NCBI GenBank assembly: GCA_031368035.1
Contig: JANLQT010000359.1
Location: 1-33,466, forward strand
Length of the DNA stretch: 33,466 bases
Direction of reading: 5' to 3'
From: Rhodobacterales bacterium
GTDB taxonomy: Bacteria; Pseudomonadota; Alphaproteobacteria; Rhodobacterales; Rhodobacteraceae
Part shown: positions 5,448 to 33,228 of the stretch, one piece after another
Layout: each line of letters opens with the position of its first letter
Numbering within the stretch: position 1 is the first letter of the stretch
The notes under the pieces: model-generated
Told to the model about the DNA's origin: nothing
What the model saw: the letters and a program-made list of their open reading frames with translations, nothing else
The model's database searches: none
Translations under genes and position numbers: made by a program

Positions 5448-6938
5448 TCAATGCACCGCCGCATACATGATCTTCTGCTCTGTCGCCTCGGACGGGGTGA
5501 ATTCCTCGACGATCCGGCCCTGTCGCGCCACCAGGATGCGGTCGGACAGGTTCAGGATTTCCGGCAGATAGGACGAGATCACCATCACCGCCAGCCCGTC
5601 ATCGGCAAGATTTTGGATCAACTGGTGAATCTCGGCAATCGCCCCCACATCGACCCCGCGCGTGGGTTCGTCGAAGATCACCATACGCGGCTTTTGCACA
5701 AGGGATTTGGCAATGACCACCTTTTGCTGATTGCCACCCGACAGTTCGATCACCCGCGCGTCGGCGTTTATGGTCCTGATGTTCAGCTTGCCGCGCCACG
5801 CCTCGGCGAGGGTCGCCATTTCGGCATGGCTGACAATCGGCGGGCCTGCTGCCGCGAGCCTTCCAAGGTGCAGGTTCTGCGCGATCGACATCTGGTCGAA
5901 GAAGCCTTCCAGCTTGCGGTCTTCGGTCACATAGACCACGCCGTCCAACACGGCATGACGGGGCAGGCGGTAGGTGACGGGACGGTCCATCAGCCGCACC
6001 TCGCCGCCGTTGAAGAAGTTGCGCTTCAAGACGCCGGCAACGATCTTGGCGGCCTCGGTCCGGCCCGAGCCGATCAGGCCGAAGACCCCGGTGACCTGGC
6101 CCGCATAGATGGTGAACGAGGTGTTGCGCACCATCGCGCCCATCGACAGGTTCTGCACCGACAGCACCTTGGCCCCTGCCGCGCGCACGCGGCCCGCGTG
6201 GCGTTGATACAGCGCGCCTGACAGGGTGCGCCCGACCATGGCCTGGATGACCTTGTCCCGGTCAAAGGCGCGGGCCTGATCGGTCACCACCAGTTCACCG
6301 TCGCGCAGGATGGTGATGCGGTCGGCGATCAACAGCGCCTCTTCGATGGCATGGCTGATGAACACGATCGCTACGCCGTCCTGTTTCAGGCGCTGCACGA
6401 GGGCGAAGAAATAGCGCTTTTCCTCGGGCGTCAGGGTCGCGGTCGGTTCGTCGAAGATGATCAGCCGGGCCTTTTGCAACACGGCGCGGGCGATTTCGAC
6501 CATCTGTTTTTGCGCGGCGCCAAGGCCCGAGACCATGGCCAGGGGATCGACGTTGAAGTTCAAGGTTTGCAGGAATTGCTGGGCAGCAATCGTCAGGCCG
6601 CGCAGGCGGTTGTAGCATTTCTCGTTCCCAAGATAAAGGTTCTGCGCCACGGTCATTGACGGCACGAGGCTGGTTTCCTGAAACACCATCGCCACGCCAT
6701 GCGCCAGCGCCTCGGACGGAGAGCGGAAGACGGCCTCGTGTCCGTCGATCTTCAAGCTGCCGGAACTGGGGCTGGTGACCCCGGCGATGATCTTGGTCAG
6801 CGTGGATTTGCCCGCGCCGTTTTCGCCCAGAAGCGCGTGGATTTCGGCAGGCATCACGGTGAAGGTCACGTTCTTCACCGCCGGAACGCCGCGATATTCC
6901 TTGGTGATGGCGGTCATTTCGACCAGGGGCGGGGTCAT
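5448..6938 (-). CDS. Sugar-type ABC transporter ATP-binding protein
   Basis: GENGAGKST, IFDEPT and LSGGNQQKVV. Start MTPPLVEM at 6938 overlaps the upstream stop (ATGA). Confidence 0.95.
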   Translation of the reverse strand: MTPPLVEMTAITKEYRGVPAVKNVTFTVMPAEIHALLGENGAGKSTLTKIIAGVTSPSSGSLKIDGHEAVFRSPSEALAHGVAMVFQETSLVPSMTVAQNLYLGNEKCYNRLRGLTIAAQQFLQTLNFNVDPLAMVSGLGAAQKQMVEIARAVLQKARLIIFDEPTATLTPEEKRYFFALVQRLKQDGVAIVFISHAIEEALLIADRITILRDGELVVTDQARAFDRDKVIQAMVGRTLSGALYQRHAGRVRAAGAKVLSVQNLSMGAMVRNTSFTIYAGQVTGVFGLIGSGRTEAAKIVAGVLKRNFFNGGEVRLMDRPVTYRLPRHAVLDGVVYVTEDRKLEGFFDQMSIAQNLHLGRLAAAGPPIVSHAEMATLAEAWRGKLNIRTINADARVIELSGGNQQKVVIAKSLVQKPRMVIFDEPTRGVDVGAIAEIHQLIQNLADDGLAVMVISSYLPEILNLSDRILVARQGRIVEEFTPSEATEQKIMYAAVH

Positions 6939-7981
6939 GGCTGCACCTCGGTCAGGGACAGGATCGCGTGGCCGCCCTTGCTGGTCACCAGAACCCGGTC
7001 GCCAAAGTGCAAGGCCGAGGTGACGCCGTGGAAACGGCCATCGGCGCGGCTGTGATAGCTGGCGATGGGCCGGAAATCGGCGTCCAGCCGCACCAGAAGG
7101 CCATAGGACCGCGTCGGCGCCCAGGGCTTGATGATGCCATGGGTGCGGATGGCGCCGCCTTGCAGGGGTTCGTTGAAATCCACAGCAGGAGACAGAGAGG
7201 GGGCGATCCAGTGGCCTGGGTCCACCTCGCGCATCATGCGGGTGCGGTAGGCAGGTTCGCGCAGGACCAGTTCGATCAGTTGGTTTCTCGGGGCGAAGAC
7301 CGGCAGCCACCAGCCACCGGGGGCGGGGGACAGGCGCGCAGGATAGCCGGGCAGGTCGGTGATCAGGGGGGTGCCCGATTGGGTCAGGCGGTGCTTCCAA
7401 GCCTCGACTACCACGACCCGCTCGCCTGCGAGCGCCGCTCCGATGGGCCAGGACAGGCCATCCGCCAGCTTTTGCAGGGTGCCGTCCGCGACCGACAACG
7501 CCCAGACCGAGCCGGAGGTCCCGGCTTGCAGCAGATCGCGCTTCCAGTCGGCGGTGGGGTTTTGGGCAGAGCCGATGCAGACGATCAGGCGGCCCGCGCC
7601 GCCGGGGGCCAAAGCGGTGATGCAGGCGCCGGGGGCCTTGACGGTGCGGTCGGTCTCGCCGGTCAGGATCAGGCTGCCGTCGGCCAGCCCGATTGCCAGA
7701 GTGGCGTCAATCACCGCCATGGCCGTCACCTCGGCGGGGCAGCGCCGCCATTCGGCGGCGACCCCAGTGGCGGGGTCCAGCGCGTGAAGGACAGCACCGG
7801 ACGAGAACAGCACCTGGCCCCGGAACAGGACCAGATTGTCTGGGGCGGCGATTCGGGCCACTACCGTAGCGTCCTCTAGCAGGGTATTCGGCCGCAGCGC
7901 CCCGTCCATCGGCGGCACGGTGGCGGCAAAGGCGCCGCGACCGCGGAACCGGTCAATGCGGCTGGTAAGCCAGGCCATCAT
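6935..7981 (-). CDS. Strictosidine-synthase-like beta-propeller protein with degenerate metal ligands
   Basis: Motifs LADGLSWPIG, VVEAWKHRL, LITDLPGYPARL and HGVTSA parallel the SSL domain of the upstream fusion. ATGA-coupled on both sides. Confidence 0.8.
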   Translation of the reverse strand: MMAWLTSRIDRFRGRGAFAATVPPMDGALRPNTLLEDATVVARIAAPDNLVLFRGQVLFSSGAVLHALDPATGVAAEWRRCPAEVTAMAVIDATLAIGLADGSLILTGETDRTVKAPGACITALAPGGAGRLIVCIGSAQNPTADWKRDLLQAGTSGSVWALSVADGTLQKLADGLSWPIGAALAGERVVVVEAWKHRLTQSGTPLITDLPGYPARLSPAPGGWWLPVFAPRNQLIELVLREPAYRTRMMREVDPGHWIAPSLSPAVDFNEPLQGGAIRTHGIIKPWAPTRSYGLLVRLDADFRPIASYHSRADGRFHGVTSALHFGDRVLVTSKGGHAILSLTEVQP

Positions 7982-10098
7982 GGCCGCGCGCCCCAATAGG
8001 CGCGCGGACCGGTCCAGTCCGGGTCGGCGCCGGGGATCTTGTAGCGGCCGATCCGGTTGTTGAAGATGCCGCCGAGGTAAAGGTAGCCCTTGTGCTCGCG
8101 GATCGAGGTGACCTGCGGGTGCTTTTCGCCCACGCCGTCCCACAGCGACTGAAGGATGGTGCCGGACAGGTCGAACTTGATGACGCCGCCGGTGTTCATG
8201 TTGGGATAGAGCCATTCGTCGCGGGCGATCTGCATCACCATGTGCTTGCGGAATTTCGGCATCCGCTGCGCCAGGTCAAAGGCGGGGGCGCGCATGCCGA
8301 TGATGCCGCACCAGAAATTGCCGTCCGAGGCGAGGTTGATGTTGTCGGGATAGCCCGGCAGGTCCGGGATGACCGCTTCCACCCGGCCCTTGTTCGGCCC
8401 GTCATAGTAGAACCGGCTGATCCGGCAGCCCCAGGTTTCGGCGAACAGGAAGGACTGGCTATCGGGCACCATGCAGATGCCGTTGGGAAACTGGCGGCCC
8501 GACAGCACGGTCTTGGACGAGCCGTCGCGAGGGTCATAGCAGATGATCCGCCCGTTGCCGCGCCCCTCCAGCGCGTCGATGATCCAGTCGTGCATCTCAT
8601 ACCGGATCGTCGCTTCGGAGAAGAACACCCGGCCATCGGGGGCGATGTCCAGATCGTCGGCCAGCCGCATCCGGCTGTCATCGACGATGGACAGCCAGGA
8701 GCGGGTGGTTTCGTCCGACAGCTTGATGACCTCGCGCGCCTTGGTGACTTTATACAGGCCCATGCCGCCCACGCAGACCAGAAGGCTGCCCTCGCGGTCA
8801 AAGGCCATCCCAAGGGTCGAGCCGCCGATATGGACAAAGACCTCGCGCTGTTTGTGGTCGGGGGCGAGGAAGCGGATGATGTCGCCGTCGCGGCTGCCGC
8901 AGTACAGGTTGCCGTCCTCGTCCAGGATCACATCTTCCGGCCCGTCCACCTCGCCCACGCCGATGGGTTCGGCATCAGACAGAAGATTGTTGATCGCATA
9001 GGGCGAGGTGGGCGCTCGGCTGACCTTTTGCAGGGGTGGTAGGGCGAAATAGGTGGGCGAGACATAGGACCGCGCCAGCAGTTTCGCGCGGTTCTTCAAC
9101 CAGCGCACGTCGATGGCGACAGCGATCAGCAGGATTGACCCCAGCACCAGCGACGAGGCACCCGACCGCAGGCCCAGCCGGATCAGCGAGTTGGTGATGA
9201 TGACGACGATCACCACGCCCAGCACCGTCTTGAACACCGATCCGCGCCCACCGCCAAGGCTGGTGCCGCCCAGCACGACTGCGGTCAGGATGGTGATTTC
9301 CAGGCCAAGGCCGGTGTCATTGCCAAGGCTGGCCAGACGCGCGGCGTAAAACACCCCCGCCGCCGCCGTCAGAACTCCGGACGCGACATAGGTCAGGCAG
9401 ACGGTGCGCCGCACGTCGATCCCGGCATTGTGCGCCGCCCGGCGCGAGCCGCCGACCGCCAGCACATGCCAGCCCGGCCGCAGACGGGTCAGGGTGAAAT
9501 GCGCCACCAGCGCCAGCGCCATGGCGTCAAGGAAGCTGGGCGCAATGCCGAAGACCGTCTTGAAGGACAGAAAGTCCCAGACCGGGCTTTTGATCTGCAC
9601 CGAGGAGATTTGTTTGGACCAGGACAGCAGCAGCGTGTCGGTGATCGAGCGAACGATGATCAGCATCACCAGCGTGGTCAGAAACGCCCGCAGCCGCAGA
9701 TAGCCGATCAGCAGCCCGTTCACGAGGCCGATCAGACCCCCGCCCGCGACCACCACCAGCGCCGCCGCCCACCACGGCAGGCCCACCACGCCGCCCAGTG
9801 CCAGCATCGACAGGTTCGCCAGCGCAAACACCGATCCCACCGACAAATCGATCCCGCCCGCCATCACCACGATGGTCAGACCCAGCGCCACCAGCAGATA
9901 TTCGCCGCCGGTCCTGGTCATACCGCTCATGCTGCCGGCGCTGAACATGCTGGGCAGGATGGTGCCGAACACGGCAAGGGCGATCAGTAGGAATAGCACC
10001 GGGATCGCGTTATCGACCCAAGGTTTGGACAGGATCTCGCCCACAACCTTGTCCGGAACAAGTCGGTAGCGCCAGCGGGTGAAGACGTCGCTTGCCAT
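7978..10098 (-). CDS. ABC permease fused to a C-terminal strictosidine-synthase-like / SMP-30-gluconolactonase beta-propeller
   Basis: The N-terminal ~335 aa is an RbsC-like permease (GGIDLSVG, AVVLGGTSLGGGRG). The C-terminal domain has GPEDV, LADDLDI, FPNGI, AETW and LPGYPDNI. Start 10098 was chosen by alignment to the paralogue at 33263 (alternative 10110). Confidence 0.92.
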   Translation of the reverse strand: MASDVFTRWRYRLVPDKVVGEILSKPWVDNAIPVLFLLIALAVFGTILPSMFSAGSMSGMTRTGGEYLLVALGLTIVVMAGGIDLSVGSVFALANLSMLALGGVVGLPWWAAALVVVAGGGLIGLVNGLLIGYLRLRAFLTTLVMLIIVRSITDTLLLSWSKQISSVQIKSPVWDFLSFKTVFGIAPSFLDAMALALVAHFTLTRLRPGWHVLAVGGSRRAAHNAGIDVRRTVCLTYVASGVLTAAAGVFYAARLASLGNDTGLGLEITILTAVVLGGTSLGGGRGSVFKTVLGVVIVVIITNSLIRLGLRSGASSLVLGSILLIAVAIDVRWLKNRAKLLARSYVSPTYFALPPLQKVSRAPTSPYAINNLLSDAEPIGVGEVDGPEDVILDEDGNLYCGSRDGDIIRFLAPDHKQREVFVHIGGSTLGMAFDREGSLLVCVGGMGLYKVTKAREVIKLSDETTRSWLSIVDDSRMRLADDLDIAPDGRVFFSEATIRYEMHDWIIDALEGRGNGRIICYDPRDGSSKTVLSGRQFPNGICMVPDSQSFLFAETWGCRISRFYYDGPNKGRVEAVIPDLPGYPDNINLASDGNFWCGIIGMRAPAFDLAQRMPKFRKHMVMQIARDEWLYPNMNTGGVIKFDLSGTILQSLWDGVGEKHPQVTSIREHKGYLYLGGIFNNRIGRYKIPGADPDWTGPRAYWGARP

Positions 10099-10180: not shown

Positions 10181-11191
10181 TCAGCCGCCGGATTTGCCGA
10201 TCTCGTCCAGGGTCCAGCAGGACGCGGGCGTCATGTTGTCCTTGGTCACTTCCACCAACGGGCTGAGCAGCGCGAAGGGCGCCGAGCCCGCGGGCAGTTT
10301 GGTCTGCAGCAGCATCTTGATCGCATCGTTCAGATCGCGCGACTGCCCGGCCACGTTGTAGCTGTGATAGACGGCGAATTCGCCCGATTCCACCTTGGCG
10401 CAGCCAGCGTCGCGGCTGCCGCCGCCCGAGGTGGCCAGCACGACCTTGCCTTGTAGTCCGGCCTCGCGGATGGCGCCCGCGGTGCCGGTGTCGGCCACGT
10501 CCCAGAAGCCAGCGATGCCGCAGAGGTCGGGGTTTTGCTGCAGCACGGTGGCGGTGATCGCAAAGGCCTTGGTGGCGTCCCAGTCCGCAGCTTGGCTGGA
10601 CACGATCTTGACCTCGGGATGCTTGGCGATCAGGTCCTCGATCCCCTGTTTCATCAGGATCGAGGCGGGCGCTGCCGTAGCGCCTTCCACCACCGCGATC
10701 TTGCCCGAGGTGCCCGCGCCGCATTTGTCGACGAGTGCCTGCGCGGTCACGGTGCCGATGTTGTACCAGTCAGGCCCGACATAGGCGTCCGACTTGGTCT
10801 CGACGCTTTGCTGCACCTGAATGACCGGGATGCCGGCCGCTGCGGCCTGTTGCACCAGACGGTTGTAGGACTGGCTGTCGTTGTTCTGGATGATCAGCAG
10901 ATCGGGATGTTCTTCAATCAGCGAGGTGATGGCCTGGATGCCGCTTTCCACGCTCCAGTTCGGGTCGCGAACGATGATCTCGTAACCCAGCTCGTTCGCC
11001 TGGCGCTGCATGCCGGCCAGCCAGCCCTGCGTCAGGTCAAAGCCCATCGAGATCGGCACGAAGCCGACCTTCTTGCCCTTCAGCGCGTCGTAATAGCCGG
11101 GCGCCACGCTGTCTTGCGCAAGGGCCAGACCCGGCGCCAGCGTCAGGGCCACACAAATCAGCCCTGTCTTCAACTTCGTCTTGAAATCCAT
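10181..11191 (-). CDS. Sugar-type ABC transporter substrate-binding protein
   Basis: Signal peptide (…APGLALA-QD), RbsB-like motifs (DAYVGPD, QAADWD); RBS GGGAGG. Confidence 0.92.
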   Translation of the reverse strand: MDFKTKLKTGLICVALTLAPGLALAQDSVAPGYYDALKGKKVGFVPISMGFDLTQGWLAGMQRQANELGYEIIVRDPNWSVESGIQAITSLIEEHPDLLIIQNNDSQSYNRLVQQAAAAGIPVIQVQQSVETKSDAYVGPDWYNIGTVTAQALVDKCGAGTSGKIAVVEGATAAPASILMKQGIEDLIAKHPEVKIVSSQAADWDATKAFAITATVLQQNPDLCGIAGFWDVADTGTAGAIREAGLQGKVVLATSGGGSRDAGCAKVESGEFAVYHSYNVAGQSRDLNDAIKMLLQTKLPAGSAPFALLSPLVEVTKDNMTPASCWTLDEIGKSGG

Positions 11192-11265: not shown

Positions 11266-12249
11266 TTAGATATCGCCTTGTTGCGCCGTCTGTTCGTCGC
11301 GCGGGTTGATCAGGGTATCCAGAACCAGCGCCAGCAGCAGGATCAGCGCCTTGATGACGTTCTGGGCGGTATAGGTCAGGTTCAGCATGGTCATGCCGTT
11401 CAGCATGATGCCGATCAGCAGGGTGCCCACCACGACGCTGAGGATGCCGCCGCGCCCGCCGGACAGCGATATGCCGCCCAGAACGACGACAAGGATCACG
11501 TCATAGACCAGCGTGCCCGACACAATCCGCGTGTTCATGCTGGTGACCAGCATGGTCATGAGCATCCCCGCGAGCAGGCCGATCAGCGCCGAGATGACAT
11601 ATTGCAGCACCATCATCACCCGTACCGGCACGCCGGCGGTGCGGGCCGCGACCGGGTTGTCGCCCATCGCATAGATGAACCGCCCATCGCGCAGATAGCG
11701 CAGCGCGACATGGGCCAGAACGGCGCATCCTAGGAAGGCAATCACCGGCACCGGCAACCCCAGCGGACGGGCCGCGACCATATCGGCCAGCCAGCGCCAG
11801 TTTTCCGGCACATGGTTCACGTCGGATTCGACCAGAAAGAACTTGCCGAAGCCGTAAACCGTCACCCCCATCGCCAAGGTCGCAAAGATCGCCGGAATCT
11901 CGACATAGGCCACCAGAATGCCGTTGATGATGCCGACCAGAACGCTGAACCCTATCGCCAGCGGCAGGGCCTGTGCGAGCGGGGCACCGGCATTCAGTTG
12001 CACCAGCATCCAGGCGATCGCCACCGACATCGAGGCGACGATCGACAGGTCGATGCCGCGCCCCAAAATGGTGATCGCCATGCCGATGCCAAGAATGCCC
12101 AGCACCGACACGCTTTGCACCATCGACACGATGTTGCCCGCCGACAGGAATCCCGGGATCAGTACGCAGAAGATGCCAAAGACCACGACAGCAATCACGA
12201 AGATGATCTCTTCCTGACCAAACCGCCTGCGGCTGCTTCCCCCGGACAT
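11266..12249 (-). CDS. ABC transporter permease (RbsC-like)
   Basis: GRGIDLS, IPAIFATL and VVLGGISLSGGRG. Start MSGGSS at 12249 has an AGGGAGG RBS. Confidence 0.93.
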   Translation of the reverse strand: MSGGSSRRRFGQEEIIFVIAVVVFGIFCVLIPGFLSAGNIVSMVQSVSVLGILGIGMAITILGRGIDLSIVASMSVAIAWMLVQLNAGAPLAQALPLAIGFSVLVGIINGILVAYVEIPAIFATLAMGVTVYGFGKFFLVESDVNHVPENWRWLADMVAARPLGLPVPVIAFLGCAVLAHVALRYLRDGRFIYAMGDNPVAARTAGVPVRVMMVLQYVISALIGLLAGMLMTMLVTSMNTRIVSGTLVYDVILVVVLGGISLSGGRGGILSVVVGTLLIGIMLNGMTMLNLTYTAQNVIKALILLLALVLDTLINPRDEQTAQQGDI

Positions 12250-12302: not shown

Positions 12303-12324
12303 AAACTGAGCGAGCGCTCGTTTT
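12303..12324. promoter_or_regulatory. Palindromic operator, likely TetR-type
   Basis: AAActGAGCGagCGCTCgtTTT dyad between the divergent transporter operon and tetR; overlaps the predicted transcription start. Confidence 0.6.
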
Positions 12325-14984: not shown

Positions 14985-16049
14985 TTACGGCAAAGTCGGA
15001 TCAAGGATCAGCTTGCCAAAGACCTTGCGCTGCCGCAGCAGGTCCTGCGCCTTGCTGACCTCGGCCAGTGAGAAAGTTTCCTGCACCACCTGCCGAAGAT
15101 TGCCCTGTCCGGCCATGCGCATCACGTCGAGGAAATCGCGCCTTGTGCCGCCGAAGGACCCTATCAGGGTCTGTTCCTTGACGAACAGGTGCCACAGGTT
15201 GAAGCCGACCATGAAGCCCGTGTGCCCGCCGCAGGTCACAAGGCGGCCGCCGCGCGACAGCGCCTTGAGGCTGCCAGCCCAGGTCGCTTCGCCGACATGT
15301 TCGAACACGATGTCCACACCGCGCCCTTGGGTGAAGCGGCGCACCTGGTCGGGCCAGGTTGGGTCGTTGTGATCGACTGCGAAATCGGCACCGATGTCCA
15401 GCGTGCGGCGCACCTTGTCCGCGCCGCCTGCCGTCGCAATCACCCGGGCGCCGGCGGCTTTGGCGATCTGGATGCCCAGAACGCCGATGCCTGAACCGCC
15501 CGCGATAATCAGCACATCCTCGCCCAGCACCACCTTGGCGCGGCCGCGCAGCATGTGCCAGGCGGTTGGTCCGGTGACCGCCACCGCTGCGGCGGCGGCA
15601 TAGTCCAGACTGTCCGGCAGCTTCAGCAGTTGTCGCGCCGGTGCCACCGCATATTCGGCATAGCCGCCATCGGTTTGCACGCCGAACACCTGGCTGCTCC
15701 GGCACATATTGGTCTCACCGCGCACGCAATTCTCGCAGTGGCGGCAGGCGATGATCGGATCGACCACGACGCGCGCACCCACCTGCCAGTCGGTGACGTC
15801 CGGCCCCAGGGCCACGATATCCCCGGCAACCTCGGTTCCCGAGATATGGGGCAGGGGCACGTCCTGCGGGGTCTGGCCATCCGCGGTCAAAAGGTCCACC
15901 TGATTGAGCCCGCAGGCCCGCACGCGGATCAGAACCTCGCCCGCACCGGGGGAAGGGATCGGCACATCCCGGTCCAGTCGCAATTCGGCCTGACCGTTCG
16001 CGCCTTTGTGCAGCCGCGCCGCGCGCATCGCGCCGGAGGCATGGGTCAT
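14985..16049 (-). CDS. Zinc-binding medium-chain dehydrogenase/reductase (quinone/enoyl reductase-like)
   Basis: PSPGAGEVLIRV, PHISGTEVAG, structural Zn site CRHCENC...C, AGGSGIG and GKLIL. ATGA-coupled start at 16049. Confidence 0.9.
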   Translation of the reverse strand: MTHASGAMRAARLHKGANGQAELRLDRDVPIPSPGAGEVLIRVRACGLNQVDLLTADGQTPQDVPLPHISGTEVAGDIVALGPDVTDWQVGARVVVDPIIACRHCENCVRGETNMCRSSQVFGVQTDGGYAEYAVAPARQLLKLPDSLDYAAAAAVAVTGPTAWHMLRGRAKVVLGEDVLIIAGGSGIGVLGIQIAKAAGARVIATAGGADKVRRTLDIGADFAVDHNDPTWPDQVRRFTQGRGVDIVFEHVGEATWAGSLKALSRGGRLVTCGGHTGFMVGFNLWHLFVKEQTLIGSFGGTRRDFLDVMRMAGQGNLRQVVQETFSLAEVSKAQDLLRQRKVFGKLILDPTLP

Positions 16050-16861
16050 TTCCGGCCCTCTTTCAGGGATTTGAGATAGGAGGCCTTCTTCGCCTTGAAC
16101 GCGTCCGACTGGAAGGTCAGGCCATTGGCCACGGCTTCCATCCCGAGCTGGCTGCGCAAATCGCTGCGTTCGCCATTGCGAAGGATCAGTTTCATCATGC
16201 GCAAGGCATCGGACCCCATCCCGTCGATCTGGGCGGCAAGGGCGTCCATGCGGGCGGACAGCGTGGCGGGATCGTCCACCAGTTCGTTGACCAGCCCCCA
16301 GACCAGCGCGGTTTCGGCATCGATCTTCTGGCCCAGCACTGCCATCTGCATCGCGCGCGAAGGGCCGATCACCCGTTGGGCCAGCCAACTCAGCCCGAAA
16401 TCCTGAATGACGTCCAGCATCAACGGCACCATCCAGAATCGGGCGGCCCGGACGCTGACCCGCATGTCGCAGGCCATCGCCAGGCCCAATCCGCCGCCGC
16501 CGCAGGCATGGCCGTTGATTGCGGCGATGGTGATGGCATCCTGTTCGAAAAGCGCGGTGATGACGCGGTGCTGCGCGTTCAAAAGCCGGGTGCCGGAAAA
16601 CACCGAAGGGTCCTCGACATGTTCCATGAAAAACGGCGTGTCCAGATCGACCCCGGCCGAGAACAGCCGCCCCGAGCCTTGCAGGAACAGCGCGTTCAGC
16701 CCGTCCCGCGCCCGGACCCGGTCCAGTGCGTCCAGGAGTTCCTCCAGCATCTGGGGGTTCAGCGCGTTCAGCCGATCCGGCCTGTTCAGGGTCAGGCGGG
16801 CGATCCGGCCTTCGAATGTCAGTGTCACGGTCCCGTAGTCGGGGATATCGCCTTGTGCCAT
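16046..16861 (-). CDS. Enoyl-CoA hydratase/isomerase family protein (PaaG-like isomerase type)
   Basis: LNRPDRLNALN, FSAGVDL and IAAINGHACGGG. Start MAQGDI at 16861 has an AGGGAAGG RBS. Confidence 0.88.
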   Translation of the reverse strand: MAQGDIPDYGTVTLTFEGRIARLTLNRPDRLNALNPQMLEELLDALDRVRARDGLNALFLQGSGRLFSAGVDLDTPFFMEHVEDPSVFSGTRLLNAQHRVITALFEQDAITIAAINGHACGGGGLGLAMACDMRVSVRAARFWMVPLMLDVIQDFGLSWLAQRVIGPSRAMQMAVLGQKIDAETALVWGLVNELVDDPATLSARMDALAAQIDGMGSDALRMMKLILRNGERSDLRSQLGMEAVANGLTFQSDAFKAKKASYLKSLKEGRK

Positions 16862-16901
16862 TTGCCTTCCCTGTACCTTGATACCAGTGGGAGTAAAATT
16901 A

Positions 16902-16941
16902 TACTGGTTAGTATGATCGCGTTTGACACCGGTTATGTCAA
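16902..16941 (-). promoter_or_regulatory. Internal promoter/operator region
   Basis: AT-rich 96-nt gap containing the TACTGGTTAGTA dyad (16902-16913) and TTGACA-N7-TGTCAA (16923-16941). Confidence 0.5.
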
Positions 16942-16957
16942 GAGTCAAAGCCAGTCG

Positions 16958-17728
16958 TCACTCGCCCTTGAACACCGCGTTCCGCTTTTCAAGAAAGGCG
17001 GCCATGCCTTCCTGCTGGTCGGGGCTGCCGAACAGGCTGTGGAACACCCGGCGTTCGAACAGCAAGCCCTCGGCCAGCGAGCCTTCCTCGGCCCGGCTGA
17101 TCGCCTCGCGGATCAGCCGGACGGCGGGGCGGGAATAGGCGGCGATGGTGCGGGCGGCCTCCATCGCCTGGACCAGCACGTCGGCATCGGGGACGACGCG
17201 GGCGACAAGGCCGGCCTGCAAGGCTTCGGCGGCGTCCATCATCCGGCCGGTCAAATGCAGGTCCATGGCGCGGGCGCGGCCGATCAGGCGGGTCATGCGC
17301 TGGGTGCCGCCGATGCCGGCGATGACGCCCAGCTTGACCTCGGGCTGGCCGAACTTGGCAGAGGTCCCGGCAATGGCGAAATCGCACATCATCATCAGCT
17401 CGCAGCCGCCGCCAAGCGCATAGCCGTTGACGGCGGCGATCTTGGGTTTGCGCGAGCGGGCGAAGGCCTCCCATTCGGCGAAGACATCCTGCGCGGCCAT
17501 CTGCTGCGCCGTCAACCCGGCCATTTCGGATATGTCGGCACCCGCCGCAAAAGCGCGCTCGTTGCCGGTGATCACCAGGCAGCCGATTTCGGGATCATCG
17601 TCCAGCGCGCGGACCGCTGCAACCATCTCGCTCGCCATGTCCGCATTCAGCGCGTTAAGCTGTTTGGGGCGGTTCAGCCGGATCAGCGCGACCGCACCGT
17701 CTCGGGTGACCTCGATGACTTGGGTCAT
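16958..17728 (-). CDS. Enoyl-CoA hydratase (crotonase, PaaF/ECHS1-like)
   Basis: AFAAGADI, GGGCEL and FGQPEVKLG (both catalytic Glu present). Start 17728 is ATGA-coupled to mmsB. Confidence 0.93.
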   Translation of the reverse strand: MTQVIEVTRDGAVALIRLNRPKQLNALNADMASEMVAAVRALDDDPEIGCLVITGNERAFAAGADISEMAGLTAQQMAAQDVFAEWEAFARSRKPKIAAVNGYALGGGCELMMMCDFAIAGTSAKFGQPEVKLGVIAGIGGTQRMTRLIGRARAMDLHLTGRMMDAAEALQAGLVARVVPDADVLVQAMEAARTIAAYSRPAVRLIREAISRAEEGSLAEGLLFERRVFHSLFGSPDQQEGMAAFLEKRNAVFKGE

Positions 17729-18597
17729 GCCCGCCCCCGCTTTTCGAACCGGGGCAGCATGGCCGAGAAATCCATGCCGCGCCCGCCTTCGGTCTCGACG
17801 AAGGCGCGGTAAAGCTGCGTGGCAAGGTGCCCCATCGGCGTGTCGGCATCCGCGCCTTCGGCGGCCAGTTGCGACAGGGTCAGATCCTTCAGCATCAGTT
17901 CCGCCGCAAAGCCAGGCTTGTAGCCGTTGTCGGCGGGAGATTTCGGGCCAACGCCGGGGGCAGGGCAATAGGCGTTCATCGTCCAGCTGTAGCCCGACGA
18001 GGTCGAAACCACATCGAACATCTTCTGCCGGTCCAGCCCCAGCTTGTCGGCCAGCGCGAATGCCTCGCAGGTGGCGATCATGGTGACGCCGAGGATCATG
18101 TTGTTGCAGATCTTGGCCGCTTGCCCCGCGCCCGAGGTGCCGCAATGCACGGCCTTTTGGCCCATGACGGCAAACAGCGGTTGCACCTTGGCAAAGGCGT
18201 CTTCCGTCCCGCCGACCATGAAGGTCAGCGTGCCCGCCGTGGCCCCGCCGATGCCGCCTGACACCGGCGCATCCAGTGCCAGAAGCCCGGCCGCCCCCGC
18301 CAGTTCGGCAACGGCGCGGGCGCTTTCCACATCCACGGTGGAGCAATCGCACAGGACCGCGCCTGTCTGCATCGCCGGGATCACCTCAGCCGCGACGCTG
18401 CGCAGGATCGCGCCGTTCGGCAGCATGGTGATGATGACCTCGGCGCCGATCGCCGCTTCAGCAGCGGAGGCGACGCGCGTGACGCCATCGGGCATGGGGG
18501 CGACCAGATCGAAGCCTTTGACTGCATGTCCCGCCTTGGCAAGATTGGCGGCCATCGGGCCCCCCATGTTGCCCAGACCGATGAAACCGATGTTCAT
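17725..18597 (-). CDS. mmsB: 3-hydroxyisobutyrate dehydrogenase
   Basis: IGFIGLGNMGGPMA, DAPVSGG...A..GTLTFMVGG, AKICNNMILG, YCPAPGV and GFAAELMLKDL. Confidence 0.93.
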   Translation of the reverse strand: MNIGFIGLGNMGGPMAANLAKAGHAVKGFDLVAPMPDGVTRVASAAEAAIGAEVIITMLPNGAILRSVAAEVIPAMQTGAVLCDCSTVDVESARAVAELAGAAGLLALDAPVSGGIGGATAGTLTFMVGGTEDAFAKVQPLFAVMGQKAVHCGTSGAGQAAKICNNMILGVTMIATCEAFALADKLGLDRQKMFDVVSTSSGYSWTMNAYCPAPGVGPKSPADNGYKPGFAAELMLKDLTLSQLAAEGADADTPMGHLATQLYRAFVETEGGRGMDFSAMLPRFEKRGRA

Positions 18598-18615
18598 GTT
18601 GTTCCCTTTCAGACC

Positions 18616-19650
18616 TCAGGCCGTCGCAAACAGCGAGGGCAATGGCAGCAGACCGGCGATCAGCGCGCTGGCATCCACGGCCGCCAGCGTGGCCGGTTGC
18701 CATTTGGGGTCGCGGTCCTTGTCGATCACCGCCGCCCGGATGCCTTCGTAGAAATCATCGCCCTGCAAGATCAGAGCATTGGCGGAAAATTCGCGGTCAA
18801 GGCAGGTTTCAAGATCGGGCGAGCGCGCCCCGGCCCGGAGCAGGTGCAGCGCAAGGACCAGGCTGGTAGGCGAGTTGCGGGACAGGGCTACCAGCGTTTC
18901 GGCGGCAAAGGCGGACCCGTCGGCCTGCAAGGTGGCCATGATCGCTGCCATGTCGTCGCCCGCAAAGGCGGCCTCGATCAGCCCGGCATGGTCCAGCAGC
19001 CGCGAGGGGCCGGGGTCCGCCGCATGGGCTTTGATCGCGGCATTCGGCGCTTGGCCCGCGACCAGATCGGCCAGCAGCGCCGGGACGACGGCGGCGGGCA
19101 CCATCGCGTCGGCCAGCCCGGCCGCAATCGCGTCGGCAGCGCCGATGGTCGCCCCGGTCAGGCCGATCCACAGGCCAAGACCGTGCGGCGCCCGGGGCAG
19201 CGCCCAGGTTGCGCCGACATCGGGGAAATAGCCGATGGTGACCTCGGGCGTGGCGAACTTCACCCGCTCGGTCATGATGCGGTGGCGGCCATGGATGCAC
19301 AGGCCGACGCCGCCGCCCATGCAGATGCCGTGCATCACCGCGATCCAGGGTTTGGACAGGCGGTGGATGCGCGCGTCCAGCCGGTATTCCTCGGCCCAGA
19401 AGGTCATCGGCTGGTTCGGGTCAGTCCGCCCGCTGGTCCAGATCGTCTTCAGATCGCCCCCGGCGCAAAGGGCGCGGTCGCCCTCGCCGGTCAGCGCGAT
19501 GGCGCGGACGGCAGGGTCCGCCTCCAGCCGGTCCAGACCGGCCCAGATCAACCGCACCATGTCGAGGTTCAGGCTGTTCAGCGCCTCGGGTCGGTTCAGG
19601 TGAACCCGGCCAAGCGCGCCTTCGACTGTGATCAGGACGGGAGCGGTCAT
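18616..19650 (-). CDS. 3-hydroxyisobutyryl-CoA hydrolase-like crotonase-family protein
   Basis: LCAGGDL, EEYRLD, GICMGGGVG, PEVTIGYFPDVG and DFYEGIRAAVIDKDRDPKW. Confidence 0.9.
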   Translation of the reverse strand: MTAPVLITVEGALGRVHLNRPEALNSLNLDMVRLIWAGLDRLEADPAVRAIALTGEGDRALCAGGDLKTIWTSGRTDPNQPMTFWAEEYRLDARIHRLSKPWIAVMHGICMGGGVGLCIHGRHRIMTERVKFATPEVTIGYFPDVGATWALPRAPHGLGLWIGLTGATIGAADAIAAGLADAMVPAAVVPALLADLVAGQAPNAAIKAHAADPGPSRLLDHAGLIEAAFAGDDMAAIMATLQADGSAFAAETLVALSRNSPTSLVLALHLLRAGARSPDLETCLDREFSANALILQGDDFYEGIRAAVIDKDRDPKWQPATLAAVDASALIAGLLPLPSLFATA

Positions 19651-20789
19651 TTCGGCTCGACCAGGGAACGCGCAACGATCAGGCGCATGATTTCGTTGGT
19701 GCCTTCCAGGATCTGATGCACGCGCAGATCGCGCACGATCTTTTCGATGCCGTAGTCCGCCAGATAGCCATAGCCGCCATGCAGTTGCAGCGCCTCGTTG
19801 GCGATGTCAAAGCCGGTGTCGGTGACAAAGCGTTTGGCGGCGGCGCAGAGCACGGTCGCATCGGGGGCTTTAGCGTCCAAGGCAACTGCGGCGCGCCACA
19901 GAAAGCTGCGCGCGGCCTCCAGCCTTATCTTCATATCGGCGAGGCGAAATTGCAGCGCCTGCATCTCGGTCAGGCGTTTGCCGAAAGCCTTGCGCTCGGC
20001 CATATAGGCCAGCGTCTTGGTCAAGGCCGCCCCGGCCCCACCCAGCGAGCAGGCCGCGATGTTCAGCCGCCCGCCATCAAGGCCCGCCATGGCGATGGCG
20101 AACCCCTGATCTTCAGCGCCCAGCAAGGCCTCCGGCCCAAGCCGCACGCCGTCCATCAGCACCGAGCGGGTGGGCTGCGCGTTCCACCCCATCTTGCGCT
20201 CATTGGCACCGAACGACAGGCCCGGCGCATCGGCTGGTACAAGGAAACAAGAAATCCCCTTGGCCCCCGGACCGCCCGTGCGCGCCATCACCAGATAGAC
20301 CGCCGACGACCCCGCGCCCGAGATGAACTGCTTTTGCCCAGTCAGGCGCCAGCCATCGCCCTCCCGCTCGGCCCTGGTGGTCAGGGCGGCGGCATCGGAT
20401 CCCACGCCCGGCTCGGTCAGGCAATAGGACGCGCGGTGTTGCAGGGTGACCAGGTCGGGGCACCATTTGAGGCGCTGCGCTTCCGAACCAAATCGGTCGA
20501 TCATCCAGACGCACATGTTGTGGATCGAGATATAGGCAGAAATCGTCGGGCACGCCTCGGCCAGTGCCTCGAAGATCAGGACGGCATCTAGGCGGCCAAG
20601 ACCGGTGCCGCCGACATCCTCGCGCGTGTAGATGCCACCCAGACCCAAGTCTCCGGCTTCGGCCAACACATCCACCGGAAAATGCTTGTCGGCATCCCAT
20701 TTGACGGCATGGGGCGCGATGCGGTCGGCGGCAAAGCTGCGCGTCATCTCGAGGATGGCGTCCTGGTCCGGGGTCAGCTCGAAGTTCAT
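19647..20789 (-). CDS. Isobutyryl-CoA dehydrogenase-like acyl-CoA dehydrogenase (ACAD8 type)
   Basis: YISIHNM, SYCLTEPG.GSDAA, KMGWNAQPT, GLDGGRLNIA and RVHQILEGTNEIM. Confidence 0.9.
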   Translation of the reverse strand: MNFELTPDQDAILEMTRSFAADRIAPHAVKWDADKHFPVDVLAEAGDLGLGGIYTREDVGGTGLGRLDAVLIFEALAEACPTISAYISIHNMCVWMIDRFGSEAQRLKWCPDLVTLQHRASYCLTEPGVGSDAAALTTRAEREGDGWRLTGQKQFISGAGSSAVYLVMARTGGPGAKGISCFLVPADAPGLSFGANERKMGWNAQPTRSVLMDGVRLGPEALLGAEDQGFAIAMAGLDGGRLNIAACSLGGAGAALTKTLAYMAERKAFGKRLTEMQALQFRLADMKIRLEAARSFLWRAAVALDAKAPDATVLCAAAKRFVTDTGFDIANEALQLHGGYGYLADYGIEKIVRDLRVHQILEGTNEIMRLIVARSLVEPK

Positions 20790-20798
20790 CGCGGCCCC

Positions 20799-21980
20799 CT
20801 AGACCCGCTCGATGGCGAGCGCGATGCCCTGACCGCCGCCGATGCACATGGTTATCAGACCAAAGCGCCCGCCGGTGCGGTGCAGGTGATGGATCGCCTT
20901 GACCGTCAGGATCGCGCCAGTTGCGCCGACCGGGTGGCCAAGCGCGATGGCGCCGCCGTCGGGGTTCACCTTGGCCGGATCAAGGTCCAGTTCGCGGTTC
21001 ACCGCCAGAGCCTGCGCTGCGAAGGCTTCGTTGGATTCGATGACGTCAAAATCCGAAATCTGCATGCCGGATCGCGCCAGAAGCGCCCGGATCGCCGGCA
21101 CCGGGCCGATGCCCATGATGCCGGGGTCCACCCCAGCATGGGCATAGGCGACGATCCGCGCCTGGGGATTGGCGCCGCTGGCCTTCACCTGCGCGCCAGA
21201 GGCAAGGACAAGCGCTGCCGCGCCATCATTGATGCCGGACGAATTGCCCGCCGTGACACTTCCGTCCTTCCTGAAGGCGGCGCGCAGGCTGGCGAGTGTT
21301 TCCGCAGTCGTGTCTGGCCTCGGATGCTCGTCGGTGTCGATGGTCATCACGCGGCGCCCGGACGTCACCTCGACCGGAAGAATCTGCGCCTTGAAATGCC
21401 CGGCGGCCATCGCGGCGGCGGTGCGGCGTTGGCTTTCCAGCGCGAAGGCGTCCTGATCCTGACGCGAAATGCCATATTTGAGCGCGACATTTTCCGCCGT
21501 GTTGCCCATGATGCCATGGCCGAACGGATCGGTCAGGACCCCGGCCAGACCGTCGATCAGCCCCGCATCACCCATCTTCTGGCCAAAACGCCCGACTTGC
21601 AGGTAATGGGGCGCGCGGCTCATCACTTCGGCCCCGCCAGCCAGCGCGACGGTTGTATCGCCCAGCATGATCATCTGCGCGGCGGAAATGATCGCCTGCA
21701 CCCCGCTGCCGCACAGCCGGTTCAGCGTCAGAGCGGGCACGTCTTTGGGGATGCCTGCATTCATCGCGGCAATCCGTGCCAGATAGGCATCCTTCGGCCC
21801 GGTCGGGATCACGTTGCCGAACACCACATGACCGATCTGATCGGGCGCCACCCCCGCCCGCGTCATCGCTTTGGCGGCGACCAGACTGCCAAGCTCGTTC
21901 GCCTCCTTGGCCATCAGGCTGCCGCCGAACGTGCCGATGGCGGTGCGGACGGAGGAAAGGATATAGACGGTTTCGGTCAT
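20799..21980 (-). CDS. bktB: Beta-ketothiolase (BktB-like acetyl-CoA C-acyltransferase)
   Basis: [26 protein letters not shown] and MCIGGG catalytic motifs. The symbol is a family-level assignment. Confidence 0.85.
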
Positions 21981-22019
21981 GGCTTTGCTCCTTCAAGGGA
22001 CTTTGCGCCCGTCGCCGAT

Positions 22020-23585
22020 TCATCCGCGCGGGTTCGCTGCGGCATGATCGGCACGCAACTGATACTTCATGATCTTCCCGATCGAAGTTTTGGGAAGCGC
22101 ATCGCGGTATTCGAACAGGGTCGGCACCTTGAACTTTGCCAGCGAGCGGGCGCACCAGTCCATCAACTCTTGATCCGCAGCGGTCATCCCGGCACGCAGG
22201 ACCACGACCGCCTTGACCGCCTCGTCCCGCAAGGGATCGAAGACGCCGATCACCGCACAGTCCGCCACCGCCGGATGGTCGGCCAGGACGCGTTCAACCT
22301 CTCCCGCCGCGATATTTTCTCCGGCGCGCTTGATCACGTCTTTTGATCGGTCCAGGAAATGCAGATAGCCACCCTCATCAAACCAGCCGTTGTCGCCGGT
22401 GACCAGCCAGCCGTCCTGCATGGCGGCGTGGCTGGCTGCTTCGTTGCGGTAATAGCCCATGAAGATCGGCGCGCCGCGCACGACGATGCCGCCGCTTTGC
22501 CCGGCTGGCAGGTCAACGCCTGCGTCATCCACCACGCGGATCTGGCGGCCAAGCACGGGCAGGCCGATGCAATGCCGCTTGGCCGTGCCATGCAGGACCG
22601 GGTTTGCGGAGCAGACGCCGAAGGTTTCGGACAGGCCGTAGCCTTCGATCAGCCGCACGCCGAAGCGGTCCTCGAACGCCGTCCATTCGTCATCCGAGGT
22701 TGGCAGGGCATAGAACGCGGTCCGGATGTCATGCCGGGCATCGGTGTCCTGCGGCGGCTGTACCAGCAGCGTGCGCAGGATCATCGGCACGATGCTGATG
22801 AAAGTGCAGCGATGCCGTCGGACTTGCGACCAATAGCGGCGCGCGCTGTAGGACTGCAGCAAAACCACAGTGCCGCCGACGGTCAGGGTCGGGATCACGC
22901 CGACGAACTGGCCGTTGACGTGGAACAACGGCAGGACCACGCAAGTTCGCTCGTGCTGGGTCAGGCCGAAATGCTGTGCCAGAGCGATGCCTTGGGTCAC
23001 GCTGCCATGATGGCCAAGCACGGCACCCTTTGGACGCGAGGTCGTGCCAGAGGTGTAGATGATCTGCGACGCATCGGCCCCCGTAACCGGGGCCGGGTGC
23101 CAGTCCGCCGCGCCGGTGGCGTCCACTGTGGCCGACAGGTTGAAACCTTGCTCGGGCGTGGCGGTCCGGGCCAGGATCTTGATGGTGACGGCGGGGCAGG
23201 TCGTCTCGATCTGGCGGTATTTCGGCAGGAAGCCCGGCTCGGTGATCAGGCCGGCACAGTCGGAATCTTGCAGAAGATAGGCCAGTTCATCGGGCGAATA
23301 GAGCACGTTGACTGGCACCATCACCGCGCCGATCTGGTTGATCGCGAACCAGGATTGCAGGAATTCCGGGCAGTTGGACAGCATCACGGCGATGGTCTGC
23401 CCGGGCCCGAGGCCGGCCGCCGCCAGATGATTGGCCAGCCGGTTCACCTTGTCGGCGAACGCGCCATAGGTCAGTTCGGTGACGCGTCCATCGTCGTCTT
23501 CATGGATCACAAACACCTTGTCCGGGTGCTTTTCGACCTGCAGCCGCAGCAGCGACGGAACGGTTTGCGTGCCAGCGATGTCCAT
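22020..23585 (-). CDS. CaiC-like acyl-CoA ligase
   Basis: YTSGTTSRPKG, EGYGLSET, TGD, KRAGENI and LPKTSIGK. The N-terminus MDIAG… resembles E. coli CaiC. Confidence 0.92.
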   Translation of the reverse strand: MDIAGTQTVPSLLRLQVEKHPDKVFVIHEDDDGRVTELTYGAFADKVNRLANHLAAAGLGPGQTIAVMLSNCPEFLQSWFAINQIGAVMVPVNVLYSPDELAYLLQDSDCAGLITEPGFLPKYRQIETTCPAVTIKILARTATPEQGFNLSATVDATGAADWHPAPVTGADASQIIYTSGTTSRPKGAVLGHHGSVTQGIALAQHFGLTQHERTCVVLPLFHVNGQFVGVIPTLTVGGTVVLLQSYSARRYWSQVRRHRCTFISIVPMILRTLLVQPPQDTDARHDIRTAFYALPTSDDEWTAFEDRFGVRLIEGYGLSETFGVCSANPVLHGTAKRHCIGLPVLGRQIRVVDDAGVDLPAGQSGGIVVRGAPIFMGYYRNEAASHAAMQDGWLVTGDNGWFDEGGYLHFLDRSKDVIKRAGENIAAGEVERVLADHPAVADCAVIGVFDPLRDEAVKAVVVLRAGMTAADQELMDWCARSLAKFKVPTLFEYRDALPKTSIGKIMKYQLRADHAAANPRG

Positions 23586-23624
23586 CAGCCTGCCGTCCCG
23601 CAGCGCGCTCGTCTGGACCTGTTG

Positions 23625-23984
23625 TCATCCATTCCGCACCTCCCCCTCGATCACCGTCTCGGCGCGCTGGTTCACGCAGCGGAAGTCGAACCCGTCGCCT
23701 TGCGAGGCCGTGACCACGATGCCAATCGTATCGCCGGGATGGGCCGGGCGCAGATACCGCAGTTTCATCCGGCTGTTTGGCAGCATCACCGGCAGGCCCG
23801 AGTTCGCCTGAACCAGCCGGAAGATCGGCTCCATCGGGATGCAGCCATGTGCAATCGTCGCCCCGAACGGCGTTGCCGTCGCAAAGGTCGGGTCCACATG
23901 CACCGGATTGAAATCGCCCGAGATCGCGGCATAGGCGTCGATCAGGGCTTGGGTGATCGTGATGGTCGGGGCCTTATCGGTCAT
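23625..23984 (-). CDS. MaoC-family (R)-specific enoyl-CoA hydratase/dehydratase
   Basis: SGDFNPVHVD...FGATIAHG hydratase-2 motif; start 23984 is ATGA-coupled. Confidence 0.9.
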   Translation of the reverse strand: MTDKAPTITITQALIDAYAAISGDFNPVHVDPTFATATPFGATIAHGCIPMEPIFRLVQANSGLPVMLPNSRMKLRYLRPAHPGDTIGIVVTASQGDGFDFRCVNQRAETVIEGEVRNG

Positions 23985-25659: not shown

Positions 25660-25669
25660 GGTGTGCTCC

Positions 25670-26647: not shown

Positions 26648-26666
26648 GGGATGTCCTTGACGTAGC

Positions 26667-27620: not shown

Positions 27621-27627
27621 GTTCGCC

Positions 27628-28791: not shown

Positions 28792-28890
28792 GACCATCCT
28801 CCCATTCTTTTGCGGGTACACGTCCCTTGGCGGGCTCATGTCCACACGACCCAACGTTCCAGACGCCGGGGGCACTCGAAACGCTTTTTG

Positions 28891-32087: not shown

Positions 32088-32155
32088 GACCGGACGCCGC
32101 CCCAAATTCGCAGCGCCCGCCCGTGACTCGCAACTAAACCAGGGAGGAACTGACT

Positions 32156-33190: not shown

Positions 33191-33206
33191 GCCGGACTAT
33201 GACTGC

Positions 33207-33228
33207 GGGCGGCCCGCCAGGGCCGCCC
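33207..33228 (+). terminator. Intercistronic hairpin after the binding-protein gene
   Basis: Perfect 9-bp stem GGGCGGCCC/GGGCCGCCC with a GCCA loop, followed by TTT. Confidence 0.55.

What the first reader, a model, noticed from the sequence alone, without database searches (positions are those of the whole stretch)
7978..10098. ABC permease fused to an apparently active SSL/lactonase beta-propeller: candidate transport-coupled hydrolysis
Seen: one uninterrupted frame joins an RbsC-like permease to a propeller carrying GPED, ADDLD, FPNG and YPDN. Known: these positions supply the central metal ligands of paraoxonase/SMP-30/SSL hydrolases, and most SSL proteins are predicted hydrolases rather than true strictosidine synthases. 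Inferred: the importer hydrolyses its cargo (lactone or ester) at the membrane and releases an acid for the CoA ligases nearby. Similar fusions probably exist in databases, but I know of no assigned substrate.
Basis: partly seen in the sequence, partly recalled or inferred. Interest (0 to 1): 0.8.

Follow-up and report, generated by a model that had tools for sequence, protein, structure and literature searches.

The report
Lactone importer with built-in lactonase pair
One membrane subunit of a bacterial nutrient importer is permanently fused to an enzyme-like propeller domain that keeps a full set of lactonase metal ligands, is predicted to face the cell interior and to pair with a ligand-less copy encoded by the next gene, and likely opens imported lactone rings so the product stays in the cell and is used as food.

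Summary
A 706-aa ORF (7978-10098, minus strand) joins an RbsC-like permease to a strictosidine-synthase-like propeller with intact metal ligands (E388, D481, N539, D585/N586). The fusion is no accident: 4029 clusters match, and close homologues are fused in 101 of 106 places in one family sample.

The two propellers are predicted to bind (0.89 vs best control 0.01) and to face the cytoplasm. CoA-catabolic genes flank 16 of 35 cassettes versus 4 of 40 ordinary CUT2 loci.

In the one traceable cassette whose fused propeller lost every ligand, an AttM-family lactonase gene follows the ATPase. That supports lactone cargo but argues that hydrolysis by the fusion is not required for transport.

Activity, substrate and coupling are untested. 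This scan noted the design five times before on other DNA; I found no paper on it.

The parts
7978..10098 (-). Fusion gene, 706 aa: CUT2/RbsC-like permease (res ~1-335, nt ~9094-10098), amphipathic linker helix, six-bladed SSL propeller (res ~347-706, nt 7981-9060)
8935..8937 (-). E388 (GPED), first metal ligand
   Evidence: E in 112 of 112 rows; aligns to TGW6 E59
8656..8658 (-). D481 (ADDLD), second ligand position
   Evidence: D 102, N 10 of 112; aligns to TGW6 N167
8482..8484 (-). N539 (FPNG), third ligand
   Evidence: 112 of 112; aligns to TGW6 N226
8341..8346 (-). D585-N586 (YPDN), fourth ligand pair
   Evidence: 112 of 112 each
6935..7981 (-). Partner propeller (P0002, 348 aa): SSL homologue without signal peptide. 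Ligand positions read D/T/variable/A-S-G/R; has a conserved 28-residue insertion; start overlaps the fusion's stop (ATGA). Likely pseudo-enzyme subunit.
   Evidence: predicted to bind the fused propeller
5448..6938 (-). CUT2-type double-NBD ATPase (Walker A GENGAGKS; second site GLIGSGRT)
10181..11191 (-). Periplasmic binding protein (Peripla_BP_4) lacking the RbsB sugar-binding residues; W57 and W230 invariant
11266..12249 (-). Second, unfused permease ending in the family-specific tail NPRDEQTAQQGDI
12307..12319 (.). Palindromic site (GAGCGCTCGCTCA on minus) just downstream of a TTGACA upstream of the cassette; probable TetR operator
14985..28797 (-). CoA-dependent catabolic cluster between the two cassettes: reductase, enoyl-CoA hydratases, HIBADH, HIB-CoA hydrolase, acyl-CoA dehydrogenases, thiolase, CoA ligase, MaoC pair, E1-alpha/E1-beta/E2
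29505..33466 (+). Paralogous cassette B: CoA ligase overlapping permease (31110-32087), SBP (32156-33190) and the first 68 codons of a second fusion (33263-end). It continues on contig C764 with partner and ATPase.

Best explanation
This is a five-gene CUT2-type ABC importer whose fused propeller keeps all lactonase metal ligands, is predicted to sit in the cytoplasm bound to a ligand-less partner propeller, and likely hydrolyses an imported neutral lactone to a charged hydroxy-acid that would be trapped and passed to neighbouring catabolic enzymes. Shown by sequence and calls: the fusion, intact ligands, fixed gene order, degenerate partner, non-sugar binding pocket, and the excess of acid-catabolic neighbours. 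Predicted: cytoplasmic side and propeller heterodimer. Inferred: the partner caps the active site and, perhaps through the conserved tail of the unfused permease, restores two-fold symmetry under the membrane. Also inferred: the cargo is a lactone that differs by clade (candidates: mevalonolactone, pantolactone, gamma-lactones, butyrolactone-like), and hydrolysis acts as a local trap rather than a strict step of the transport cycle. For this window's clade the cargo is unidentified; the flanking cluster suggests a branched acyl lactone degraded via CoA thioesters.
For: Ligands: E388, N539, D585, N586 in 112 of 112 rows, D481 D or N; 41 of 42 further full-length copies read EDNDN or ENNDN. Fold: Z 35 to TGW6, about 30 to DFPase and the lactonase Rpa3624, whose Ca ligands are E15, N123, N172, D229, S230 (PMC9843451 passages). 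Side: ten membrane-embedded helices at pLDDT 84.9 and end-to-end alignment to RbsC. K/R means are 4.3 (N-term), 6.3 (coupling loop) and 4.9 (post-TM10 linker) versus 0-1.2 in the alternate loops. The partner has no hydrophobic leader. Partner present in 35 of 35 genome loci, 5 of 5 plasmid loci, 0 of 40 control loci, and at 18 places matching the 18 fusion places in the same 12 of 401 genomes. Complex score 0.89, best of 3 controls 0.01; the mark was reached by 116 of 157 solved and 2 of 215 mismatched pairs; runs share at least 83% of contacts; partner pLDDT at least 89. SBP: no Arg at RbsB R90 or R141 in 40 of 40, N190 is W in 40 of 40, D215 kept in 2 of 40; R141 and D215 matter for ribose (PMC8343135 passages). 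Neighbours: CoA enzymes 16 of 35 vs 4 of 40, sugar kinases/isomerases 1 of 35 vs 10 of 40; second set 26 of 40 and 0 of 40. Degradative HMG-CoA reductase and HMG-CoA lyase pass NCBIfam cut-offs in L071 and have close homologues in 6 and 5 of 102 loci. Natural test: L138 has a complete cassette with ligands AATVG and an AttM-family lactonase (422.9 bits vs cut-off 390) about 58 bp after the ATPase. That gene was found in 1 of 102 cassette loci and 0 of 40 controls. AttM/BlcC cleaves gamma-butyrolactone and AHLs (PMC5924552 passages).
Against: No activity, ligand or phenotype was measured. TGW6 keeps most of the motif yet had no Ca2+ in its crystal (PMC10958001 passages). Six of the ten intact full-length fused representatives among the best 150 hits at 50% clustering have lost two or more ligands (P0126, P0136, P0137, P0140, P0141, P0146). 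Four of them have a second full-length cluster member, so the cassette can persist without this active site. The AttM replacement is n=1. 19 of 35 cassettes have no CoA gene detected, including the whole CMD-linked clade. The enrichment counts kin. The controls were picked by likeness to a sugar-type permease, and 21 of 40 come from three genomes of one genus. The complex is between paralogues and could echo an ancestral homodimer. Interface residues of the fused side are no more conserved than the rest (0.73 vs 0.75; partner 0.66 vs 0.54). Rpa3624 does not hydrolyse mevalonolactone, so that candidate needs a different pocket.
Confidence: 0.62

Rival explanations
1. The propeller pair is mainly a non-catalytic regulatory or structural module of the transporter. 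It binds product or cargo at the old active site and controls the ATPase (trans-inhibition, in the manner of regulatory domains on MetN or MalK, recalled), or is needed for assembly; any hydrolysis is secondary.
For: The partner is ligand-less in all 45 aligned rows yet always present. Complete cassettes with a ligand-less fused propeller exist (L138; P0136-P0146). The unfused permease has a family-specific tail in 34 of 35 loci by pattern and 0 of 40 controls. TGW6 shows that motifs need not bind Ca.
Against: Complete conservation of a full ligand set in 112 of 112 rows across 40-90% identity is more than a scaffold needs. Ligand-less copies sit on long branches (0.77-1.16 vs mostly under 0.45), as expected after loss of a function. 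The traceable one carries a separate lactonase.
Confidence: 0.2
2. The cargo is an acyclic ester or an acyl-sugar (for example a 1-O-acyl-glucose, as reported for TGW6), not a lactone. The fused esterase releases an acid for the CoA ligases plus an alcohol or sugar.
For: The closest solved relative is TGW6, described as an IAA-glucose hydrolase. CoA ligases are the commonest neighbours. N6P propellers include arylesterases.
Against: The SBP lacks the polar sugar-binding set, and sugar kinases are nearly absent nearby (1 of 35, 0 of 40). Several flanking modules act on hydroxy-acids, the products of lactone opening. The substitute gene in L138 is a lactonase. A listing disputes TGW6's auxin role.
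Confidence: 0.12
3. The propeller faces the periplasm like ordinary membrane-anchored SSL proteins and opens lactones before uptake, the binding protein carrying the resulting acid.
For: Stand-alone bacterial SSL homologues begin with a hydrophobic leader (P0161, P0163; L136). Ca2+ is more available outside (own knowledge). Topology predictions for this family vary between programs (PMC3654945 passages).
Against: The post-TM10 linker is K/R-rich like the coupling loop. The partner has no export signal yet is predicted to bind the propeller. The SBP has no conserved pocket Arg for a carboxylate at the RbsB positions.
Confidence: 0.05

Closest known systems
CUT2 family ABC importers, TC 3.A.1.2 (RbsABC, AraFGH, XylFGH, LsrACDB)
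   Same: Peripla_BP_4 binding protein, two BPD_transp_2 permeases, double-NBD ATPase; the TM part aligns to RbsC end to end
   Different: C-terminal propeller fusion, fifth gene, conserved permease tail, no RbsB-type sugar residues. No NCBIfam equivalog cut-off is reached.
N6P superfamily, SSL subgroup: TGW6 (8KG3), strictosidine synthase; metal lactonases Rpa3624, DFPase, Drp35, PON1
   Same: Six-bladed fold (Z 27-35); the four ligand positions are conserved
   Different: Fused to a permease, predicted cytoplasmic, paired with a pseudo-enzyme. At most 25% identity to solved relatives; stand-alone SSLs reach about 33%.
QsdH of Pseudoalteromonas byunsanensis (PMC3466314; abstract and outline seen)
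   Same: A lactonase domain within a transporter polypeptide
   Different: GDSL hydrolase in the periplasmic loop of an RND efflux pump; different fold, direction and side
Peroxisomal ABC transporter Comatose (PMC6642094; search listing and abstract start only)
   Same: ABC transporter that hydrolyses an ester bond of its cargo
   Different: Eukaryotic exporter fold; the thioesterase site lies in the TM helices, not in an appended enzyme
BlcABC/AttKLM gamma-butyrolactone catabolism of Agrobacterium (PMC5924552 passages)
   Same: Lactone opened, hydroxy-acid catabolised; an AttM-family gene follows the ligand-less cassette in L138
   Different: Soluble metallo-beta-lactamase-fold enzyme, not fused to a transporter

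Membership tests
CUT2 ABC importer (TC 3.A.1.2) | RbsC-like 10-TM permease(s) with coupling loop | tested here: met
   PF02653; hhalign to RbsC 306 columns, probability 100; AF2 helices
CUT2 ABC importer (TC 3.A.1.2) | Double-NBD ATPase and Peripla_BP_4 binding protein in the same operon | tested here: met
CUT2 ABC importer (TC 3.A.1.2) | Binding pocket with the polar monosaccharide residues of RbsB (D89, R90, R141, N190, D215) | tested here: not met
   R90 0 of 40, R141 0 of 40, N190 0 of 40, D89 6 of 40, D215 2 of 40. Structurally CUT2, but not a ribose-type sugar carrier.
CUT2 ABC importer (TC 3.A.1.2) | ATP-driven uptake of a defined solute | not testable with these tools
   needs a transport assay
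N6P/SSL metal-dependent hydrolases (fused propeller) | Six-bladed propeller of the SSL subgroup | tested here: met
   PF03088, PF20067, PF08450; Z 35.0, rmsd 2.3, 278 aligned to 8KG3
N6P/SSL metal-dependent hydrolases (fused propeller) | Four conserved metal ligands | tested here: met
N6P/SSL metal-dependent hydrolases (fused propeller) | Bound divalent metal and lactonase or esterase activity | not testable with these tools
   TGW6 shows that motifs alone do not guarantee metal
True strictosidine synthases | Loss of the metal ligands (metal-independent condensation) | tested here: not met
   ligands retained; criterion from PMC4215206 passages
N6P/SSL metal-dependent hydrolases (partner P0002) | Four conserved metal ligands | tested here: not met
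   positions read D 37/45, T 35/45, variable, A/S/G/C 45/45, R 45/45

The most novel reading that the evidence does not exclude
A widespread, undescribed class of ABC importers dedicated to lactones, with a membrane-tethered enzyme/pseudo-enzyme propeller heterodimer under the translocation pathway. It ring-opens cargo as it arrives, so a membrane-permeant neutral solute is converted to a trapped anion: group translocation by hydrolysis on an ABC chassis. Clades are specialised for mevalonolactone, pantolactone, gamma-lactones and butyrolactone-like compounds.
Probability: 0.35. Interest if true: 0.85.

Novelty: new variant of a known kind. Interest (0 to 1): 0.68.

Why it matters
ABC importers are taken to deliver cargo unchanged. 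A conserved importer with a covalently attached catabolic enzyme and a pseudo-enzyme partner would be a new way to solve the leak problem of small neutral solutes. The cassette is common: 71 of 370 genomes in one alphaproteobacterial family sample, up to five copies per genome, plus beta- and gammaproteobacterial plasmids. It is annotated as a ribose permease or gluconolactonase. It would give the bacterial SSL subgroup a physiological role and make lactone uptake directly testable, with clade-specific substrate candidates and a natural ligand-less variant as a control.

Tried and rejected
Single-sequence AF2 model was unusable (pLDDT 40) and was repeated with a 112-row alignment. No solved structure of the permease part was found by sequence, and the fold lists were filled by the propeller, so topology rests on alignment, charge bias and the model. 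No RNA holder was listed; this says nothing on expression. Promoter and terminator scans were at chance level. Two metagenome scans for the context of ligand-less homologues gave nothing usable. Long frames at G1142 and L139 are not new fusions. P0123, a 347-aa propeller-only record with 58% identity, clusters with a 704-aa member, so it is not evidence of a split family. P0144 and P0199 look frameshifted and were left out of the ligand count, as were other partial rows. PDB searches with the CoA ligases named no substrate. The pantoate-pathway search returned two irrelevant papers, and the levulinate-pathway paper was not held, so both pathway readings are recalled leads only. Hicks et al. 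2011 was not held. I saw it only through review passages; it or its supplements may mention ABC-fused SSL proteins. Searches that found no description of this fusion or cassette: (open-access full text only). The careful IQ-TREE run did not finish; trees are the quick tree and FastTree, used only for grouping. One genome (G1422) was not scored.
Full report
Observation. The frame 7978-10098 on the minus strand is open for 706 residues. It carries BPD_transp_2 at 60-326 and SSL_N, Str_synth and SGL matches at 366-601, with GPED, ADDLD, FPNG and YPDN at 386, 480, 537 and 583. An alignment-based AF2 model (pLDDT 84.9, pTM 0.66) shows a helical membrane domain, a long helix 314-345 leaving the membrane, and a propeller. 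Its best structural matches are TGW6 (Z 35.0, rmsd 2.3, 278 residues), strictosidine synthases, DFPase, Rpa3624, Drp35 and PON1.

The fusion is the norm. 4029 clusters matched at E<=1e-50 among 8000 scored. In genome samples, close matches occurred in 11 of 400 other genomes of the order, 11 of 400 of the phylum and 71 of 370 of one other family. Of 36 distinct non-own places have frames of at least 707 aa and one is at a contig start. Of 106 places, 101 have at least 699 aa, four are at contig edges and one is broken together with its partner (L140). Stand-alone SSL proteins are a distant group at about 33% identity. The closest named relatives are Rhodobacterales and other alphaproteobacterial MAGs; plasmid copies reach Paraburkholderia and Pantoea.

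It is one part of a fixed cassette. The order is permease, binding protein, fusion, second propeller, ATPase, in nearly every locus mapped, with ATGA overlaps linking the last three genes here. The second propeller (6935-7981) has no Pfam hit but aligns to the fused one (probability 99.9; the Atlas agrees). At the ligand positions it reads D, T, variable, A/S/G and an invariant R, and it has a conserved 28-residue insertion. It was found in 35 of 35 genome loci, 20 of 22 related loci (two end inside the fusion), 5 of 5 plasmid loci and 0 of 40 control CUT2 loci, and never without the fusion in 401 genomes. The predicted complex scored 0.89 against a best control of 0.01. The mark was reached by 116 of 157 solved and 2 of 215 mismatched pairs, contacts agree at 83% or more, and partner pLDDT is at least 89. 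The interface pairs homologous helices (601-636 with 233-259) and brings the partner's insertion (268-289) against 628-631. Residues 385 and 657-662, which flank ligand positions in sequence, are also in the interface; that the insertion caps the active site is my inference. A pass between paralogues may reflect an ancestral homodimer. The unfused permease ends in NPRDEQTAQQGDI or a close variant (pattern in 34 of 35 loci, 0 of 40 controls); its docking on a propeller is untested.

Side of the membrane. The TM part aligns to RbsC from end to end, ten TMs is the commonest CUT2 topology (PMC3654945 passages), and the N-terminus, coupling loop and post-TM10 linker are the K/R-rich segments. With a signal-less partner, the cytoplasm is the likely side.

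Cargo. The binding protein has replaced the RbsB sugar residues: R90 and R141 in 40 of 40, N190 by an invariant Trp, D215 in 38 of 40. R141 and D215 are documented as important for ribose (PMC8343135 passages); the rest of that residue list is partly recalled. Using E. coli proteins as neutral probes, CoA-catabolic genes lie within the 20-kb region of 16 of 35 cassettes and 4 of 40 control CUT2 loci, and sugar kinases or isomerases in 1 of 35 and 10 of 40. A second set of 40 regions, half picked for low scores and half from the top, gave 26 and 0. Kin are not independent, the controls lean to sugar systems, and 21 of 40 controls come from three genomes. Flanking modules track cassette clades. 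They are: degradative HMG-CoA reductase plus lyase (6 and 5 of 102 loci); SDR, aldehyde dehydrogenase and an isopropylmalate-dehydrogenase-like gene (3; resembles pantoate catabolism, recalled); APH kinase, small protein, CoA ligase and acyl-CoA dehydrogenase (4; resembles the levulinate/4-hydroxyvalerate pathway, recalled); a PRK07529-like CoA ligase (17); and a CMD-family gene (14). In this window two paralogous cassettes (72% identical) flank a 14-kb CoA cluster. Cassette B overlaps a ligase gene, and the ligase-E1-E2-MaoC-hydratase-reductase block, complete or nearly so, also precedes the cassette in sphingomonads and a Steroidobacteraceae MAG. The substrate of this clade is not identified.

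A natural test that cuts both ways. Ligands are intact in 112 of 112 aligned rows and 41 of 42 further copies. But six of the ten intact full-length fused representatives among the best 150 hits at 50% clustering have lost two to five of them (partial and frameshifted rows excluded); these are small clusters on long branches. One could be placed in a genome. L138 has the whole cassette, an ordinary binding pocket, ligands AATVG, and about 58 bp after the ATPase an AttM-family lactonase above the NCBIfam cut-off, followed by a GMC oxidoreductase and a HIBADH-family gene. That lactonase occurs in no other of 102 cassette loci or 40 controls. AttM/BlcC opens gamma-butyrolactone and AHLs (PMC5924552 passages). 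This looks like replacement of the lost function by an unrelated lactonase, the most direct support for lactone cargo, though n=1. It also implies that the transporter can work without catalysis in the fused domain, so I read the fusion as a local trap rather than a strictly coupled step. TGW6, which keeps most of the motif but bound no Ca2+ (PMC10958001 passages), is a further caution.

Comparison and novelty. It works like a CUT2 importer plus an N6P lactonase. It meets the structural tests for both, fails the sugar-pocket test, and is not a strictosidine synthase. Transporter-hydrolase precedents differ in fold, direction and side: QsdH (abstract) and Comatose (listing). Searches found no description of this fusion; Hicks et al. 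2011 could not be read. Five earlier reports of this scan describe the same design on other DNA. My reading and the complex prediction preceded that look-up; the short notes shown did not mention the pocket analysis, the neighbour control, the tail, the ligand-less variants or the AttM replacement. Verdict: real, conserved, apparently unstudied; new variant of a known kind; interest 0.68.

Noticed in passing
window 16902-16913, 28911-28922, 29157-29168: Three intergenic TACTAATTAGTA-like palindromes upstream of the catabolic operons and of cassette B (4 matches at <=3 mismatches vs 0.35 expected; the pattern was taken from one of the sites). They are conserved in L004, L015 and L018. The divergent promoters at 28879-28931 and 29148-29200 are a 53-nt inverted pair. 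Probable TetR regulon.
   Followed up: partly
window 12307-12319: GAGCGCTCGCTCA next to a TTGACA upstream of cassette A, also upstream of the cassette region in L002, L004, L005, L008, L009 and L010, which carry the same TetR gene, and once in unrelated L026.
   Followed up: partly
window 33263-33466 and L001 3740-5671: The second fusion gene is split only by the assembly: the end of C159 and the start of C764 (reverse) overlap by 15 nt. A SnoaL-like gene follows on the opposite strand.
   Followed up: yes
window 16958-20789: An isobutyryl-CoA-type block (acyl-CoA dehydrogenase, HIB-CoA hydrolase, HIBADH, hydratase) lies inside the cluster, hinting at a branched C4 product.
   Followed up: no
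L055, L056, L063, L065, L068, L074-L076, L079, L084, L086, L089, L139, L140: One cassette clade adds a CMD-family gene after the ATPase and showed no CoA genes in most loci.
   Followed up: partly
L058 1204-3195: An extra permease and SBP of the same family follow the ATPase, suggesting a second specificity sharing one ATPase.
   Followed up: no
L072 12962-13783: An AidB-like metallo-lactonase (below cut-off) lies divergently upstream of a cassette with intact ligands.
   Followed up: no
P0261, P0266; P0186, P0209, P0228: Other SSL fusions exist: to an FAA-hydrolase domain, and to an unannotated ~540-aa N-terminal domain.
   Followed up: no
window 1-5075: An ordinary CUT2 operon with a Gfo/Idh/MocA oxidoreductase lies tail to tail with the cassette; its permease was the query for the control set.
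   Followed up: partly
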